Assembly: GCA_035479875.1 (NCBI GenBank) | Contig: DATIIH010000013.1 | Coordinates: forward strand, 37,089-101,088 | Source of the DNA: Patescibacteria group bacterium | Lineage (GTDB): Bacteria; Patescibacteriota; Saccharimonadia; Saccharimonadales; UBA4665 | DNA: 64,000 bases | Direction of reading: 5' to 3' | In this document: positions 17,544 through 21,509 of the stretch, one piece after another | Position numbering within the stretch: position 1 is the stretch's first letter | How the letters are laid out: each line of letters starts with the position of its first letter | Notes under the pieces: model-generated | What the model was told of the DNA's origin: nothing | Databases searched by the model: none | The model's input: the letters and a program-made list of their open reading frames with translations, nothing else | Position numbers and translations under genes: made by a program

Positions 17544-19100
17544 CTACTTGCCTTTAGTAGTAAATTCGGTGGCGCCGCAGGTGCAGCCCTTGTTTAACTT
17601 TTTGGAGTTATAGACGTAATAGATGTTGCCCGTCTTGCCGCAGGAGGTGCATGAACGCTCGACGTCGTGCACCATATCATCACCTTCCTCAAATCCCAGC
17701 AGAACCTTCATGGCATCGGCCTCAGGGCCGACGGCCTCTACTAAGCCACAACTGCCGGCGCCGCAGAATACAACCGGCGGGGCGTCGGCTTCGATATCCC
17801 GTTCGATTGCGCGGATAGCATCTTCGGTGTGCTGCCCGCGGGTTTCGGCCAACTCACGCAGACGCTTGGCAGTCTGGACGTTAAACGCCACTTCGGCTTG
17901 ATCGGGATTGTGCTTGACCAGGCCAAACACAATCTTTTTAACCTGTCGCTCAACGAGACCCATAGCCGACCAGTGGTCAATACCGGACTGTTCGAGCGTC
18001 ATCAAGAAGTCGGCGAGATCTTCGCTGCTCGCGTCGAGCTTCTCTTGACGGGCAACGGCCTCGGCTTCGATAGCGGCGTAGTCCATGGGGTGGTCGTCGG
18101 CCACAATCTCGCCCATAAAGATGCGTTTGCCGGTGCGCTTGCTGGCGATCGCATCCAGCCTCTTGCCAACAGCCACGACACCCTCGCCGGTGACGTTAAT
18201 AACCTGCTTCTCGCGGACTTCGGCTTTGCTAAGCATTTCGCCCTGCTGGGCAACGCCCACCTCCCTAAGGAACTCAACAATATCGTCATGAGTAATGTTT
18301 TCGCCCGAGAGGCCAAGCTGTTCTTGGTAACGGGCATCTTTGCCATAACGCACACCGCGAATCATAAACTTGTCGTTCTCCGGCACATAGCCACCTAGGC
18401 CCAGCTCGGAGCCTCTGGCGTGCGCTGCTTTTGCCCAGTCAGCACATTCCGAAATGGTAGTGACGCGCGTATCGGGCAACGTCGAATTGGCTTCTGGCTG
18501 GCCAGGGCGGAGCACGGTCAAGTTGCCAACCGCCAAATGGCCTAATTTGCGAACGGCGATGTAGGTGGCCTCTTCTACGTACTCGCCTAAGCGGTAGCCC
18601 AGCTCTTCGTCCTCAGCTATCGGCGTAATGCCATCGCTTACCATGTCGATGAGGCAACGCCCTAAGAAGTGGTAGGCATTGGCAGCGGAGTCGAAGGTCT
18701 GTCTGGTCTCTGGGAAAAACTCCCACGTGCGTTTGCGCATTGCTTCGGCAAGCAGACGCTTGGTGTCTGTGGTCAGGCTCTGGCGGGCTTCGGCGGCCTG
18801 AGAGCTTTCTTTGCCGTGTGTTCGGCGCGCCTGGTTAGCGCGGGCCGCAGTAGTAAGTGGGTCAACTGCGTAAGGGACTTGCTGCTCGCTGTCGCCCTCG
18901 TTAAGTAAACGCCTGCGCCCGTCAAGGATAGCCCGGGCGCGGACACGGGCCGCTTCGCGTTCTTCACGTAAGCCGCGGATGCTGTCGGCGTCAACCCACC
19001 CCAAAAACTCCGGCCCGTTTTCAAAAACGGGGGCGGCGCTTGATGCAAATTCTGGCGCATGGGCTACGGCGGTTATAAAAATACCCTCTTTCCAGAGCAA
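17544..19100 (-). CDS. Soluble hypothetical protein with C-terminal Cys cluster; true start uncertain
   Basis: 518-codon ORF with no TM or signal peptide; CGAGSC, CTSC and CTC near the C-terminus. The TTG start lies inside the riboswitch terminator. Confidence 0.75.
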   Translation of the reverse strand: MLWKEGIFITAVAHAPEFASSAAPVFENGPEFLGWVDADSIRGLREEREAARVRARAILDGRRRLLNEGDSEQQVPYAVDPLTTAARANQARRTHGKESSQAAEARQSLTTDTKRLLAEAMRKRTWEFFPETRQTFDSAANAYHFLGRCLIDMVSDGITPIAEDEELGYRLGEYVEEATYIAVRKLGHLAVGNLTVLRPGQPEANSTLPDTRVTTISECADWAKAAHARGSELGLGGYVPENDKFMIRGVRYGKDARYQEQLGLSGENITHDDIVEFLREVGVAQQGEMLSKAEVREKQVINVTGEGVVAVGKRLDAIASKRTGKRIFMGEIVADDHPMDYAAIEAEAVARQEKLDASSEDLADFLMTLEQSGIDHWSAMGLVERQVKKIVFGLVKHNPDQAEVAFNVQTAKRLRELAETRGQHTEDAIRAIERDIEADAPPVVFCGAGSCGLVEAVGPEADAMKVLLGFEEGDDMVHDVERSCTSCGKTGNIYYVYNSKKLNKGCTCGATEFTTKGK

Positions 19101-19232
19101 GGTAGAGGGTGAGGTAGGCGCTTTCCTGCTCGGGAATGTCGTTACAAGCTGTATCGGACTCGACCCTATGGGGCATCACCGTTGCGGCACAGTACAGGAT
19201 TCTCACCTGCTTCCAGCAATATGTTGTTAAGT
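19074..19232 (-). ncRNA. Cobalamin riboswitch, short class-II-like (AdoCbl-variant-like), with terminator/antiterminator platform
   Basis: GCUG-GAAG-CAGG UGAGAAU CCUG-U-ACUGU GCCGCA ACGGU-GA-hairpin-GAGUCCGAUA-CAGC, an outer stem, a downstream UUCC-CGAGCA-GGAA hairpin, then ACCCUCU/AGAGGGU followed by AUUUUU. Confidence 0.82.
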
Positions 19233-19238
19233 ACATCT

Positions 19239-19247
19239 ATCATAGCA
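19239..19247 (-). promoter_or_regulatory. Extended -10 promoter for the riboswitch leader
   Basis: TGCTATGAT; predicted start site ~19232, at the 5' edge of the aptamer. Confidence 0.6.
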
Positions 19248-19295
19248 AACTAGACACTACATACGTGGTGTAGTTTTACCAACAAAGCACTACGA

Positions 19296-19757
19296 TTACT
19301 GCTCGGCGGCAGTCGTCTTTTGCTTGAGGGCGCTGAGGCGCGGAATAAAGCTCTGAGCGGCGCCATCGAGGCCTAGAACCTTAAGCGCACCTACCAATAC
19401 ATATAAATGGTCGAGATTATCGGTTGCCACTTGGCCGGCCTGCTCCAGCTCGGCAAACAAATACTCTACCTTTTCGACCAACCACTTTTCTTCAGACGGT
19501 TTTATTTGATTGGTGGGAATCTTGCTTGGTTCGCTAGGCTCGACAACTTCGAGCGAGCGCGCCGAGTGGTCGCGCTTGCGCAAATGCCCGCGCCGGATGA
19601 GATTATTAATATGCAACGCCACAGTCGCCACCGATGTGTAATTAAGCCCTGTCATTATTTCTCGGTAACTCGGGCTATACCCGTGCTCGGCAATAAACTG
19701 CTCGATAAAGGTTAGTAGCTCGCGTTGCTTTTTGGTTGGTCGTACGGTGTCGCTCAT
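19296..19757 (-). CDS. LexA-like repressor: N-terminal winged HTH only, no S24 peptidase domain
   Basis: TKKQRELLTFIEQFIAEHGYSPSYREI...SVATVALHINNLIRRGHLRKRDHSARSLEV. The C-terminus is helical, with no Ala-Gly site or Ser/Lys dyad. SD AAGGAGG. Confidence 0.82.
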   Translation of the reverse strand: MSDTVRPTKKQRELLTFIEQFIAEHGYSPSYREIMTGLNYTSVATVALHINNLIRRGHLRKRDHSARSLEVVEPSEPSKIPTNQIKPSEEKWLVEKVEYLFAELEQAGQVATDNLDHLYVLVGALKVLGLDGAAQSFIPRLSALKQKTTAAEQ

Positions 19758-19773
19758 GCCCCCTCCTTTGCAA

Positions 19774-19963
19774 AGACCCGCCGTGCGGGGTACTGTGCCC
19801 CGAGGCGATACCAAAAGTGATTACTCAAGGTAAACCAAGCCGCCGCAAGAGAGAATTTACGCTCCGTGCCCACGTCGCGAGCAAACAGAGCAATCCCACC
19901 CCAGTGATAGCAGGTTCCGCCAATCATACACTCATTTTGTTGGATAAGATCGGCGCGGGTCTC
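19774..19963 (-). ncRNA. Candidate ~190-nt rod-like structured RNA (6S-like or cis-regulatory leader)
   Basis: The ends pair (AGACCCGC/GCGGGUCU) and a nested series of helices with many G-U pairs forms on the minus strand only. Extended -10 TGGTATACT at 20006-19998. Confidence 0.45.
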
Positions 19964-20069
19964 ACAAAAACGGTCTGTACTACCCATACCTCATACCAGT
20001 ATACCAACAAATGCTAGTACTTGTCGGTGCCCGGGCAACGACTAATCCAAAGTGGTACAATCTAATCAC

Positions 20070-21509
20070 ATGAAGAACAACGCCTCACTTGTGTATAACC
20101 TGTGCTTAATGGTGGGAGACTTTTTGGCATTAGTGGCGGCATTTGTGGCAGCGTACGTGCTGCGCATTAAGTTGGAGGTGGGCATTAGTAGCGGACCGAT
20201 TGGACCCAGTAACGGTCGAGCCTTTTTGGCCGTTTTTTTGAGCGTCTTGCCGTTTTGGATTCTGATTTTTGCCCTGCTTGGCTTATATAACAGCAACATC
20301 TATGAGTACCGGTTTAAAGAACTCGGGCGGCTGCTTGTCGGCTCGTTTATTGGCCTGTTGTTTGTTATCTTTTGGAACTTTGTGGCCAGCAAGCCAATCT
20401 TCCCTGCCCGGCTGGTGCCGATTTACGGCTTTGCCTTTGGCTTTATCTTTTTAGTAGTCTTTAGAAACTTAGCACGCTTTATCCGGGTACAACTCTTTAG
20501 AAGCGGGACCGGACTAACTCGCGTACTTCTGGTAGGCAACACGTCGATGACACTCGACCTGTTGGGCTGGCTTAATAGCCCGCGCTCCGGCTACAAGGTG
20601 GTAGGCGTGGTGGGCGGCAAACGAGCCGTGGGCAAGCATCTGGTACCGCTATTCCAAACCTTTGGCCAGTTTTTGCTCACTCCGCACGGTGAGCTGCACG
20701 GCATTATCCAGACCGAACTGTATGCAGATGAGGCGCAAAACGCCAAAATCCTCTCCTATGCCCAAGAAAGTCATGTTGGCTACCGGTTTGTCCCGGGCAA
20801 CAGTGAATTGTTTGTGGGCAATATAGAAGTAGAGCTGTTTCGCAACAGCGTGCCGGTAATTACCGTGCATCAAACAGCGTTGTTCGGGTGGGGGCGTGTG
20901 GTAAAACGGCTGTTCGACCTCACGGTCGGGCTGTTCTTGCTGCTGCTTGCTTCGCCGCTGATGCTCCTAATCATACTGGTCCTAAAAATTACTGAGCCGC
21001 ATTCACCAGTATTTTATAAGCCCAAACGTCTGGGGCGTTTTGGCAGCACCTTTAGCTTTTACAAATTCCGTAATATGTATCAAAAGTATTGCATGAGCCC
21101 AGAAGAAGGCTTTGCCAAAATGGGCCGGCTAGACTTGCTCAAAGAATACCGTGCTAATGGCGACTGGCTGGCAAACGACCCTCGGGTGACACCCTTCGGC
21201 CGCATCCTGCGCAAAACGAGCCTCGACGAATTACCGCAGCTGATCAACATCGTAAAGGGCGACATGAGTCTGGTTGGTCCTCGGGCGCTCGACCCCATCG
21301 ACCTCGTTAAATATGACAAGAAGAATCTGATTCTGGCGGTTAAAACTGGGCTGACCGGCCTAGCTGTAGTCTCTGGACGGCGGGGCATCAGCTTTGAGGA
21401 ACGCCGCAAGCTCGACTTGTACTATGTGCAAAACTGGAGTTTTTGGCTTGATATAACGATCCTGCTTAAAACTGTCCGGGTCGCCCTGGGGGGCCGAGGG
21501 AACACCTAA
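20070..21509 (+). CDS. Priming polyprenyl-phosphate sugar phosphotransferase (WcaJ/WbaP family)
   Basis: N-terminal TMs, KRLFDL, FYKFRNM, DPRVTPFGRILRKTSLDELPQLINIVKGDMSLVGPR, DLYYVQNWSFWLD. Confidence 0.92.
   Translation: MKNNASLVYNLCLMVGDFLALVAAFVAAYVLRIKLEVGISSGPIGPSNGRAFLAVFLSVLPFWILIFALLGLYNSNIYEYRFKELGRLLVGSFIGLLFVIFWNFVASKPIFPARLVPIYGFAFGFIFLVVFRNLARFIRVQLFRSGTGLTRVLLVGNTSMTLDLLGWLNSPRSGYKVVGVVGGKRAVGKHLVPLFQTFGQFLLTPHGELHGIIQTELYADEAQNAKILSYAQESHVGYRFVPGNSELFVGNIEVELFRNSVPVITVHQTALFGWGRVVKRLFDLTVGLFLLLLASPLMLLIILVLKITEPHSPVFYKPKRLGRFGSTFSFYKFRNMYQKYCMSPEEGFAKMGRLDLLKEYRANGDWLANDPRVTPFGRILRKTSLDELPQLINIVKGDMSLVGPRALDPIDLVKYDKKNLILAVKTGLTGLAVVSGRRGISFEERRKLDLYYVQNWSFWLDITILLKTVRVALGGRGNT

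What the first reader, a model, noticed from the sequence alone, without database searches (positions are those of the whole stretch)
19754..20006. ~190-nt rod-shaped RNA (6S-like?) or coupled 77-aa ORF in the leader of the LexA-like gene
Manual folding of 19963-19774 (minus) gives nested helices from end to apex: AGACCCGC/GCGGGUCU, CCAA/UUGG, GAGUG/CACUU, AUUG/UAAU, GAACC/GGUUU, CUGCU/GGCGG, GGGAUU/AAUUCU, GCUCUGU/ACGGAGC, UGCUCGC/GUGGGCA, with a side hairpin CGGGG/CCCCG. The many G-U pairs favour the minus strand. Length and rod shape recall 6S RNA, which in E. coli is processed from a transcript shared with a downstream gene. The closing stem ends just before the lexA-like SD, so translational control is an alternative. 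The same stretch also holds an ORF (19987-19754) whose TGA overlaps the lexA-like ATG, so a coupled peptide cannot be excluded.
Basis: inference. Interest (0 to 1): 0.62.

Follow-up and report, generated by a model that had tools for sequence, protein, structure and literature searches.

The report
Decayed gtrA relic before lexA-like gene
The supposed 6S-like RNA is the shrunken, decaying remains of a membrane-protein gene (gtrA) that related Saccharibacteria keep intact in front of the same regulator gene; this is ordinary gene decay, with one mildly interesting point, that the leftover reading frame still runs exactly into the regulator's start codon.

Summary
The listed helices, the 77-codon ORF (19987-19754, minus) and its ATGA overlap with the lexA-like start are all present. 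The RNA reading fails. There is no 6S match in the region or anywhere in the genome. The fold ranks only about 27th of 672 equal-sized windows here. No relative shares the structure, and the sequence has no second copy in the genome.

The ORF is a relic of a GtrA-family gene. In 32 of 60 genomes of the order, an intact gene of about 137-235 aa (145-157 aa within the genus) lies immediately upstream of the lexA-like gene, usually overlapping its start or ending within about 30 nt of it. The window copy keeps about 36 N-terminal codons (TM1) and about 33 C-terminal codons (TM4). It has lost about 70 codons in frame and keeps only 9 of 18 invariant residues. Its divergence is nearly flat across codon positions, and it has no Pfam hit.

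A conserved extended -10 box (TGgTATACT, 20006-19998) lies 10 nt before its ATG. The relic therefore forms the near-leaderless 5' part of the lexA-like mRNA. Whether its translation is still needed for coupling is inferred, not shown. Interest is low.

The parts
19998..20027 (-). Promoter of the gtrA-relic/lexA-like transcript. -35-like CCGACA at 20027-20022, an 18-nt spacer, and an extended -10 TGgTATACT at 20006-19998.
   Evidence: Consensus scan. A TGnTATACT box sits 3-14 nt (8-14 nt for the intact genes) upstream of the gtrA or relic ATG in nearly all genus members.
19754..19987 (-). 77-codon ORF, an internally deleted and decaying GtrA-family gene relic. It makes up the 5' part of the lexA-like mRNA.
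   Evidence: Six-frame matches to GtrA genes upstream of lexA-like in relatives, protein alignment, Pfam PF04138 on the G002 orthologue but not on this ORF, and relaxed constraint.
19881..19987 (-). 5' homologous block (ORF nt 1-107, N-terminus plus TM1 of GtrA).
   Evidence: Collinear 65-67% nucleotide identity to nt 1-107 of the G002 and G017 gtrA genes.
19856..19880 (-). Deletion junction (ORF nt 108-132, peptide RDVGTERK) with no clear homologue. It forms the tip of the central hairpin.
   Evidence: No aligned counterpart. The hairpin apex is GCUCGCGACGUGGGC.
19757..19855 (-). 3' homologous block (ORF nt 133-231, TM4 and C-terminus of GtrA).
   Evidence: 61-70% identity to nt 340-438 of the G004 and G003 gtrA genes and protein alignment.
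19832..19917 (-). Central imperfect hairpin of the predicted fold, centred on the deletion junction.
   Evidence: -32.5 kcal/mol, z -2.57. Its 54-nt core (19848-19901) gives z -3.17. No other copy exists in the genome.
19762..19768 (-). Shine-Dalgarno AAGGAGG of the lexA-like gene, inside the relic's last codons. It is predicted to be mostly paired with the U-rich codons 5-8 of the relic.
   Evidence: Sequence. Unpaired probabilities are 0.15-0.54.
19754..19757 (-). ATGA stop/start overlap between the relic ORF and the lexA-like gene.
   Evidence: Sequence. The same junction is present in 16 of the 30 loci examined first.
19296..19757 (-). lexA-like gene, 153 aa. It has only the LexA DNA-binding domain and no peptidase domain.
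   Evidence: Pfam PF01726, E 1.7e-15, residues 8-67, no other family. Present in 60 of 61 genomes of the order.

Best explanation
The stretch is not an RNA gene. It is the relic of a GtrA-family membrane-protein gene. In this order of Saccharibacteria, gtrA ancestrally forms a two-gene unit with the lexA-like regulator: gtrA comes first, starting about 10 nt after an extended -10 promoter, and its stop overlaps the lexA-like start.

In this genome an in-frame loss of about 70 codons removed TM2 and TM3. What remains has since drifted under relaxed selection on the protein. The two ends survive because they carry what the lexA-like gene needs: the promoter and 5' start at one end, and the Shine-Dalgarno site plus the ATGA junction at the other.

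Shown here: the homology, the deletion, the relaxed constraint, the conserved promoter box, and the absence of any RNA-family or repeat signal.

Inferred: the transcript starts around 19992-19989. The relic is still translated as a near-leaderless 77-codon ORF. Ribosomes finishing at UGA open the partly occluded SD and reinitiate at the overlapping AUG. The predicted RNA fold is a by-product with no selected function.
For: Homology. The N-terminal residues (about 3-37) and the C-terminal residues (about 44-76) of the ORF hit separate parts of a 145-160-aa open frame directly upstream of lexA-like in same-genus genomes. Those frames are GtrA (PF04138, 55.6 bits for the G002 copy). The window ORF gets no Pfam hit even at E<=10. 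The alignment shows a gap of about 70 residues spanning TM2-TM3. At nucleotide level, ORF nt 1-107 and nt 133-231 are collinear with the two ends of intact genes.

Synteny. An intact gtrA lies upstream of lexA-like in 32 of 60 genomes across many families.

Decay. The relic keeps 9 of 18 invariant columns and 19 of 32 near-invariant columns, where intact genus members keep 30-32 of about 33. Its identity to intact copies is 34-43% within the genus (21% to the out-of-family G026) against 51-63% predicted from lexA-like divergence, z -2.4 to -4.6. Divergence by codon position is 0.38-0.42 / 0.35-0.39 / 0.49-0.58, against 0.18-0.27 / 0.20-0.27 / 0.53-0.67 for intact pairs. Hydropathy of the TM segments has dropped.

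Uniqueness and reality. There is no other 42-135-aa relative in 5.8e9 proteins. No PF04138 hit above cut-off exists anywhere in this genome. Contigs from 4 soil metagenomes cover 19500-20078 with zero differences, so the deletion is not an assembly artefact.

Promoter and coupling. The extended -10 box is conserved. The SD is predicted to be mostly paired, here and in relatives.

Against the RNA reading.
Against: No transcript or ribosome data exist: only DNA soil metagenomes hold the sequence. Transcription start, translation of the relic and coupling are therefore unproven.

The frame has stayed open through heavy divergence, P about 0.05 if all of that divergence were neutral. This could mean some function of the peptide rather than mere read-through.

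The minus-strand fold is somewhat better than shuffles (z -2.69; central hairpin z -3.2), so a local structural role cannot be excluded.

Four genus members (G014, G009, G018, G022) express lexA-like without any upstream ORF, so coupling is not obligatory.
Confidence: 0.85

Rival explanations
1. The about 190-nt segment is a functional structured RNA. It would be either a 6S-like RNA polymerase-binding RNA processed from the lexA-like transcript, or a cis-acting leader whose fold gates the lexA-like SD.
For: The minus-strand MFE is -74.5 kcal/mol, z -2.69, and the strand asymmetry is real. The central hairpin gives z -3.2. In the full leader, the extended closing stem covers part of the SD. 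No 6S gene is detectable elsewhere in the genome, so that role is unfilled.
Against: There is no RF00013 or other relevant Rfam hit, even at E<=10. The rod model scores -47.5 against an MFE of -74.5, and the MFE is a four-way junction without a central bubble. The fold ranks about 27th of 672 windows. The sequence is alignable to a protein gene in relatives, and the closing stem is absent there. Independent relics in G012, G005, G015 and G011 give z +1.5, +1.1, +1.9 and -1.1. No terminator was found on this strand. There is no second copy in the genome.
Confidence: 0.05
2. The 77-aa ORF encodes a functional small protein, a neo-functionalised two-helix mini-GtrA, maintained by selection on its product.
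For: The frame is open over 77 codons despite 43-45% nucleotide divergence from intact copies (P about 0.05 under full neutrality). The deletion is in frame. The motifs RADLIQ, MIGG and WYR are retained. Gene callers predicted it (P0001).
Against: Half of the invariant residues are replaced, mostly aromatic or hydrophobic residues becoming polar or small ones (Y>C, F>H, W>S, W>G, F>Q). Hydropathy of the two helices fell to 0.55 and 0.24, against 0.8-1.2 in intact copies. Divergence across codon positions is almost flat. No similar short protein exists anywhere else. The retained motifs lie next to the promoter and SD ends, which are constrained at the DNA level.
Confidence: 0.08
3. It is a purely neutral relic. 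The DNA between the promoter and the SD is junk that merely has not yet acquired a stop codon. The lexA-like gene is translated independently from its own strong SD, and translation of the relic is irrelevant.
For: The lexA-like gene has a consensus AAGGAGG 4 nt before its ATG. G014, G009, G018 and G022 have no upstream ORF at all. The open-frame probability of about 0.05 is a lower bound, because part of the divergence predates the loss of constraint.
Against: Every other gtrA-less genus member still has an ATG-initiated ORF running from the promoter-proximal start to the ATGA: G011 59 aa, G016 27 aa (itself ATGA-coupled to the upstream ligase-like gene), G012/G005/G015 38-39 aa, and G020 23 aa. 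The SD is predicted to be mostly base-paired in the free leader. About 42 of 60 genomes of the order have an upstream ORF ending within 14 nt of the lexA-like start.
Confidence: 0.35

Closest known systems
GtrA family (Pfam PF04138, GtrA/DPMS transmembrane domain): small four-helix membrane proteins of glycan-modification loci, such as GtrA of Shigella serotype-converting phages (from my own knowledge)
   Same: The N-terminal (TM1) and C-terminal (TM4) segments align with GtrA orthologues of relatives. The genomic position is the same, between a divergent WbaP-type sugar transferase and the lexA-like gene. The promoter and the ATGA junction are also the same.
   Different: It lacks about 70 residues (TM2-TM3) and has lost 9 of 18 invariant residues. 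It gets no Pfam hit, and selection on the protein is relaxed. It is a relic, not a member in working order.
Translational coupling through overlapping stop/start codons (AUGA/UGAUG), as in the E. coli trp operon junctions (from my own knowledge)
   Same: It has the AUGA overlap, an SD inside the upstream ORF's last codons, and an SD predicted to be paired in the free mRNA.
   Different: The upstream partner here is a decayed gene with no evident product function, so it would act only as a ribosome-delivering uORF. Dependence of the downstream gene on it is untested.
6S RNA (Rfam RF00013)
   Same: The length is about 190 nt, it lies upstream of a protein gene on the same strand, and some long-range 5'-3' pairing is present.
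   Different: There is no covariance-model match. The best fold is a four-way junction without a central bubble. It is not conserved, and the homologous DNA in relatives is coding.
Hairpin-rod / MITE-like repeat families noted near GtrA and lexA-like genes in other Saccharibacteria (earlier notes e1-2122376, e1-2030538, e1-1075275)
   Same: The neighbourhood is the same, and a long imperfect hairpin sits at a gene-disruption junction.
   Different: There is no second copy of the hairpin, the leader or the promoter palindrome anywhere in this 1.17-Mb genome. No look-alike exists in the scan's index.

Membership tests
6S RNA (RF00013) | Match to the family covariance model | tested here: not met
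   No hit at E<=10 in 19000-20400. No hit at E<=1 in the whole genome, while the control genomes do give hits.
6S RNA (RF00013) | Rod-like fold with a large central bubble between a closing stem and a terminal stem | tested here: not met
The MFE is a four-way junction at -74.5 kcal/mol.
6S RNA (RF00013) | Conservation of the structure in relatives | tested here: not met
   The homologous locus in relatives is an intact gtrA gene or a different relic. The closing stem is absent from G002 and G017. Other relics give z +1.9 to -1.1.
6S RNA (RF00013) | Binds the RNA polymerase holoenzyme and templates pRNA | not testable with these tools
   No RNA data are available; only DNA metagenome runs hold the locus.
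GtrA family (PF04138) | Profile match above the Pfam gathering score | tested here: not met
   The 77-aa ORF matches no family at E<=10. The G002 orthologue scores 55.6 bits against a cut-off of 26.1.
GtrA family (PF04138) | Four transmembrane helices | tested here: not met
   The alignment shows TM2-TM3 deleted. Hydropathy of the remaining two segments is reduced.
GtrA family (PF04138) | Descent from a GtrA gene (orthologous position and alignable ends) | tested here: met
Gene relic / pseudogene | Full-length orthologues in relatives, truncation here, and relaxed constraint | tested here: met
   There are 32 of 60 intact orthologues and a deletion of about 70 codons. The identity deficit is z -2.4 to -4.6. 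Invariant residues are lost and the codon-position profile is flat.
Translationally coupled gene pair | Stop/start overlap with an SD inside the upstream ORF | tested here: met
   ATGA at 19757-19754 and AAGGAGG at 19768-19762.
Translationally coupled gene pair | Downstream translation depends on upstream translation | not testable with these tools
   Only indirect evidence exists: the SD is predicted to be paired, and the open frame is retained in other relics.

The most novel reading that the evidence does not exclude
Coupling lock-in. In this genus the lexA-like regulator may depend on ribosomes delivered by a leaderless upstream ORF. When gtrA is lost, selection would then keep an open, promoter-proximal reading frame ending in AUGA, whatever it encodes.

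At least three or four separate decay routes would fit this pattern: G000 with 77 codons, G011 with 59, G016 with 27 (coupled at both ends), and the G012/G005/G015/G020 group with 23-39.

This would be a natural series showing that translational coupling constrains how genes can be deleted from compact CPR genomes.
Probability: 0.3. Interest if true: 0.45.

Novelty: new member of a known kind. Interest (0 to 1): 0.15.

Why it matters
The main value is as a correction. An apparently structured intergenic 'RNA' in a CPR genome turns out to be the remains of a protein gene, so it should not be counted as a candidate 6S or riboregulator. It also documents that gtrA plus the lexA-like gene form an ancestral, promoter-proximal and tightly joined unit in this order of Saccharibacteria. 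Within one genus, gtrA is found at every stage from intact to gone. If the open relic frames are indeed selected, the series would be a small, clean natural experiment on translational coupling and leaderless initiation in ultrasmall bacteria.

Tried and rejected
Fold background. I replaced them with a composition-regressed MFE ranking.

RNA expression. No RNA runs are available; only 6 DNA metagenome runs hold the locus.

Covariation. R-scape-type testing was impossible. No other genome has the same short form, and a MAFFT alignment of the different relics was uninformative beyond the promoter and SD ends.

dN/dS. Synonymous sites are saturated, so I used dN, loss of invariant residues and codon-position profiles instead.

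Mobile hairpin or repeat element, suggested by earlier notes on other genomes. Rejected: there is no second copy in the genome. A 13-mer seen five times (GGCGATACCAAAA) has unrelated flanks each time.

SOS-box autoregulation. There is no GAAC-N4-GTTC near the promoter, and window-wide counts are at chance level.

Intrinsic terminator or attenuator on the minus strand. None was found.

Literature. Searches on leaderless Saccharibacteria promoters and on relic uORFs returned nothing pertinent.

Full report
SETTING

The window lies in a 1.17-Mb, 99%-complete genome. Earlier notes of this scan call it a soil Saccharibacteria, and the only public runs holding the locus are soil metagenomes.

On the minus strand, the lexA-like gene runs from 19757 to 19296. 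It encodes 153 aa with only the Pfam LexA DNA-binding domain at residues 8-67. Upstream and divergent on the plus strand is a WbaP-type sugar transferase (Bac_transf). The finding occupies the roughly 300 nt between these two genes.

CHECK OF THE OBSERVATION

The 77-codon ORF (19987-19754) and its ATGA overlap with the lexA-like start are present.

The 8-nt closing inverted repeat is exact.

RNAfold gives -74.5 kcal/mol for 19963-19774 on the minus strand, z -2.69, with 2 of 200 shuffles as good. The plus strand gives z -1.05. The strand asymmetry is therefore real.

The MFE, however, is a four-way junction, not a rod.

I compared the target with 672 non-overlapping 190-nt windows of the same 64 kb on both strands. 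Twenty-eight have an MFE at least as low. After regression on G+C and G+U content, the target ranks about 27th, even though its ends were hand-picked. With the whole leader included, z is -1.77. Only the central hairpin is mildly unusual: z -2.6 for 86 nt and -3.2 for its 54-nt core.

TESTS OF THE RNA READING

- A permissive Rfam scan (E<=10) of 19000-20400 finds no 6S or other relevant family over the region.
- RF00013 finds nothing at E<=1 in the whole genome, although it does give hits in control genomes.
- No intrinsic terminator is predicted on the minus strand.
- The sequence has no second copy in the genome and no look-alike in the scan's index. It therefore does not belong to the hairpin-repeat families noted near gtrA and lexA-like genes in other Saccharibacteria.

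WHAT IT IS

A six-frame search with the 77-aa product in 60 relatives was decisive. Residues about 3-37 and about 44-76 hit two separate parts of a 145-160-aa open frame lying directly upstream of the lexA-like gene in same-genus genomes.

These frames are GtrA-family proteins. The G002 copy scores 55.6 bits on PF04138 against a cut-off of 26.1. The window ORF matches nothing even at E<=10.

The alignment shows that the window ORF keeps the N-terminus with TM1 and then TM4 with the C-terminus. It lacks about 70 residues, covering TM2-TM3.

At the nucleotide level:
- ORF nt 1-107 are collinear with nt 1-107 of the G002 and G017 genes (65-67% identity).
- ORF nt 133-231 are collinear with nt 340-438 of the G004 and G003 genes.
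- About 25 nt of junction (19880-19856) have no counterpart. The tip of the central hairpin sits exactly on this junction.

An intact gtrA lies immediately upstream of the lexA-like gene in 32 of 60 genomes of the order, spread over many families. The stop/start codons usually overlap or nearly abut, and in three genomes the gap is about 20-30 nt. The two-gene unit is therefore ancestral and the window state is derived.

The deletion is not an assembly artefact. Contigs from four soil metagenomes cover 19500-20078 with no difference and no gap. The genome has no other PF04138 gene above cut-off.

DECAY

The relic keeps 9 of 18 columns that are invariant among 14 intact copies, and 19 of 32 near-invariant columns. 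Intact genus members keep 30-32 of about 33. The replacements are mostly radical: Y>C, F>H, W>S, W>G and F>Q.

Its identity to intact copies is 34-43% within the genus (21% to the out-of-family G026), where lexA-like divergence predicts 51-63% (z -2.4 to -4.6).

Synonymous sites are saturated, so dN/dS is unusable. dN is roughly doubled.

Divergence by codon position is almost flat, at 0.38-0.42 / 0.35-0.39 / 0.49-0.58. Intact pairs show 0.18-0.27 / 0.20-0.27 / 0.53-0.67.

Mean hydropathy of the two surviving helices fell to 0.55 and 0.24, from 0.8-1.2 in intact copies. No protein of 42-135 aa in 5.8 billion sequences resembles the ORF apart from itself.

HOW IT MOST LIKELY WORKS

An extended -10 box, TGnTATACT, lies 3-14 nt upstream of the gtrA or relic ATG in nearly all genus members (8-14 nt for the intact genes). 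Here it is TGgTATACT at 20006-19998, 10 nt before the ATG at 19987. From this I infer a transcript that starts around 19992-19989 and is practically leaderless.

The relic thus forms the first roughly 230 nt of the lexA-like mRNA. The lexA-like SD, AAGGAGG at 19768-19762, lies in the relic's last codons. In the free leader it is predicted to be mostly paired with the U-rich codons 5-8 (unpaired probability 0.15-0.54). The SDs of relatives are likewise predicted to be paired.

The simplest mechanism is classical translational coupling. Ribosomes that load at the 5' end translate the relic, melt the structure, stop at UGA, and restart at the overlapping AUG. This step is inferred, not shown.

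A SERIES OF RELICS

Within the genus, gtrA is found at every stage of loss.
- Intact in 12 genomes.
- G000: a 77-codon relic.
- G011: a 59-codon relic made by a different deletion. Each of G000 and G011 keeps alignment columns that the other lacks.
- G016: 27 codons, ATGA-coupled at both ends between an O-antigen-ligase-like gene and the lexA-like gene.
- G012, G005 and G015: 38-39 codons, reading MRM...IVQKEVV.
- G020: 23 codons.
- G014: the -10 box is followed by ATG-TAA and then the SD.
- G009, G018 and G022: no upstream ORF.

Every relic that still has an ORF ends in the ATGA. For the window relic, the chance that the frame stayed open if all its divergence were neutral is about 0.05. That figure is a lower bound.

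This hints that translation through to the junction is selected. The events are few, however, some are not independent, and four genomes manage without any upstream ORF. The other relics fold no better than shuffles (z +1.5, +1.1, +1.9 and -1.1), which argues against a selected RNA structure.

COMPARISON WITH KNOWN SYSTEMS

The region works like a translated leader or uORF joined to its downstream gene by an AUGA overlap, as at the E. coli trp operon junctions (from my own knowledge). By descent it comes from the GtrA family, but it fails that family's profile and topology tests. It fails every testable 6S criterion.

VERDICT

This is an ordinary gene relic wrongly suspected of being an RNA.

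Confidence in the relic identity is high (about 0.85-0.9). Confidence that its translation is functionally required is moderate (about 0.3-0.5). Interest is low, at 0.15.

Noticed in passing
window 19130-19269 (-): There is a cobalamin riboswitch match (RF00174, 30.9 bits against a gathering score of 31.5, E 1.1e-05) between the lexA-like gene and the 518-aa orphan ORF at 17544-19100. Its core is visibly conserved downstream of the lexA-like gene in many relatives. Earlier agents have already followed it up (e1-5204228, e1-5204229).
   Followed up: partly
window 20049-20072 (+): The divergent sugar-transferase gene has its own extended -10 box, TGGTACAAT at 20053-20061, 8 nt before ATG 20070. 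Its real start is therefore probably ATG 20070 (MKNNASL...), near-leaderless, and not the GTG at 20052 listed by the ORF finder. The motif AGATTGTACCAC is conserved at this position in many genus members.
   Followed up: partly
window 20023-20042: A 20-bp imperfect palindrome, GTCGTTGCCC|GGGCACCGAC (9 of 10 positions), overlaps the -35 region between the two divergent promoters. It is single-copy in the genome. G002 has a different perfect palindrome (CCAGCCAG-gtag-CTGGCTGG) at the equivalent place. It could be an operator or a hairpin-repeat scar; this is untested.
   Followed up: partly
window 20049, and L053 (G020) around 1381: In all four soil metagenomes the assembly graph branches at 20049. 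The alternative left flank is identical to the congener G020, which carries only a 23-codon gtrA relic. Two species of this genus with different decay states therefore co-occur in the same soils.
   Followed up: yes
L035-L093 (relatives): gtrA followed by the lexA-like gene is an order-wide unit (32 of 60 genomes). In several other genomes an O-antigen-ligase/Wzy_C-like gene sits directly upstream of the lexA-like gene instead, again often with an ATGA overlap (G040, G057, G016). The lexA-like protein has no peptidase domain, so it looks like a regulator tied to the surface-glycan locus rather than an SOS repressor.
   Followed up: partly
whole genome G000: No 6S RNA (RF00013) is detectable at E<=1, and no GtrA-family gene (PF04138) scores above cut-off anywhere in this 99%-complete genome.
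   Followed up: partly
L039 (G016), oriented coordinates 1421-1504: The 27-codon gtrA relic in G016 starts with an ATGA overlap on the stop of the upstream 473-aa ligase-like gene and ends with an ATGA overlap on the lexA-like gene. The ligase-like gene's last codons and SD (…KEAA*, GGAGGctgcATGA) resemble the usual gtrA/lexA-like junction, which suggests recombination between junction-like sequences.
   Followed up: no
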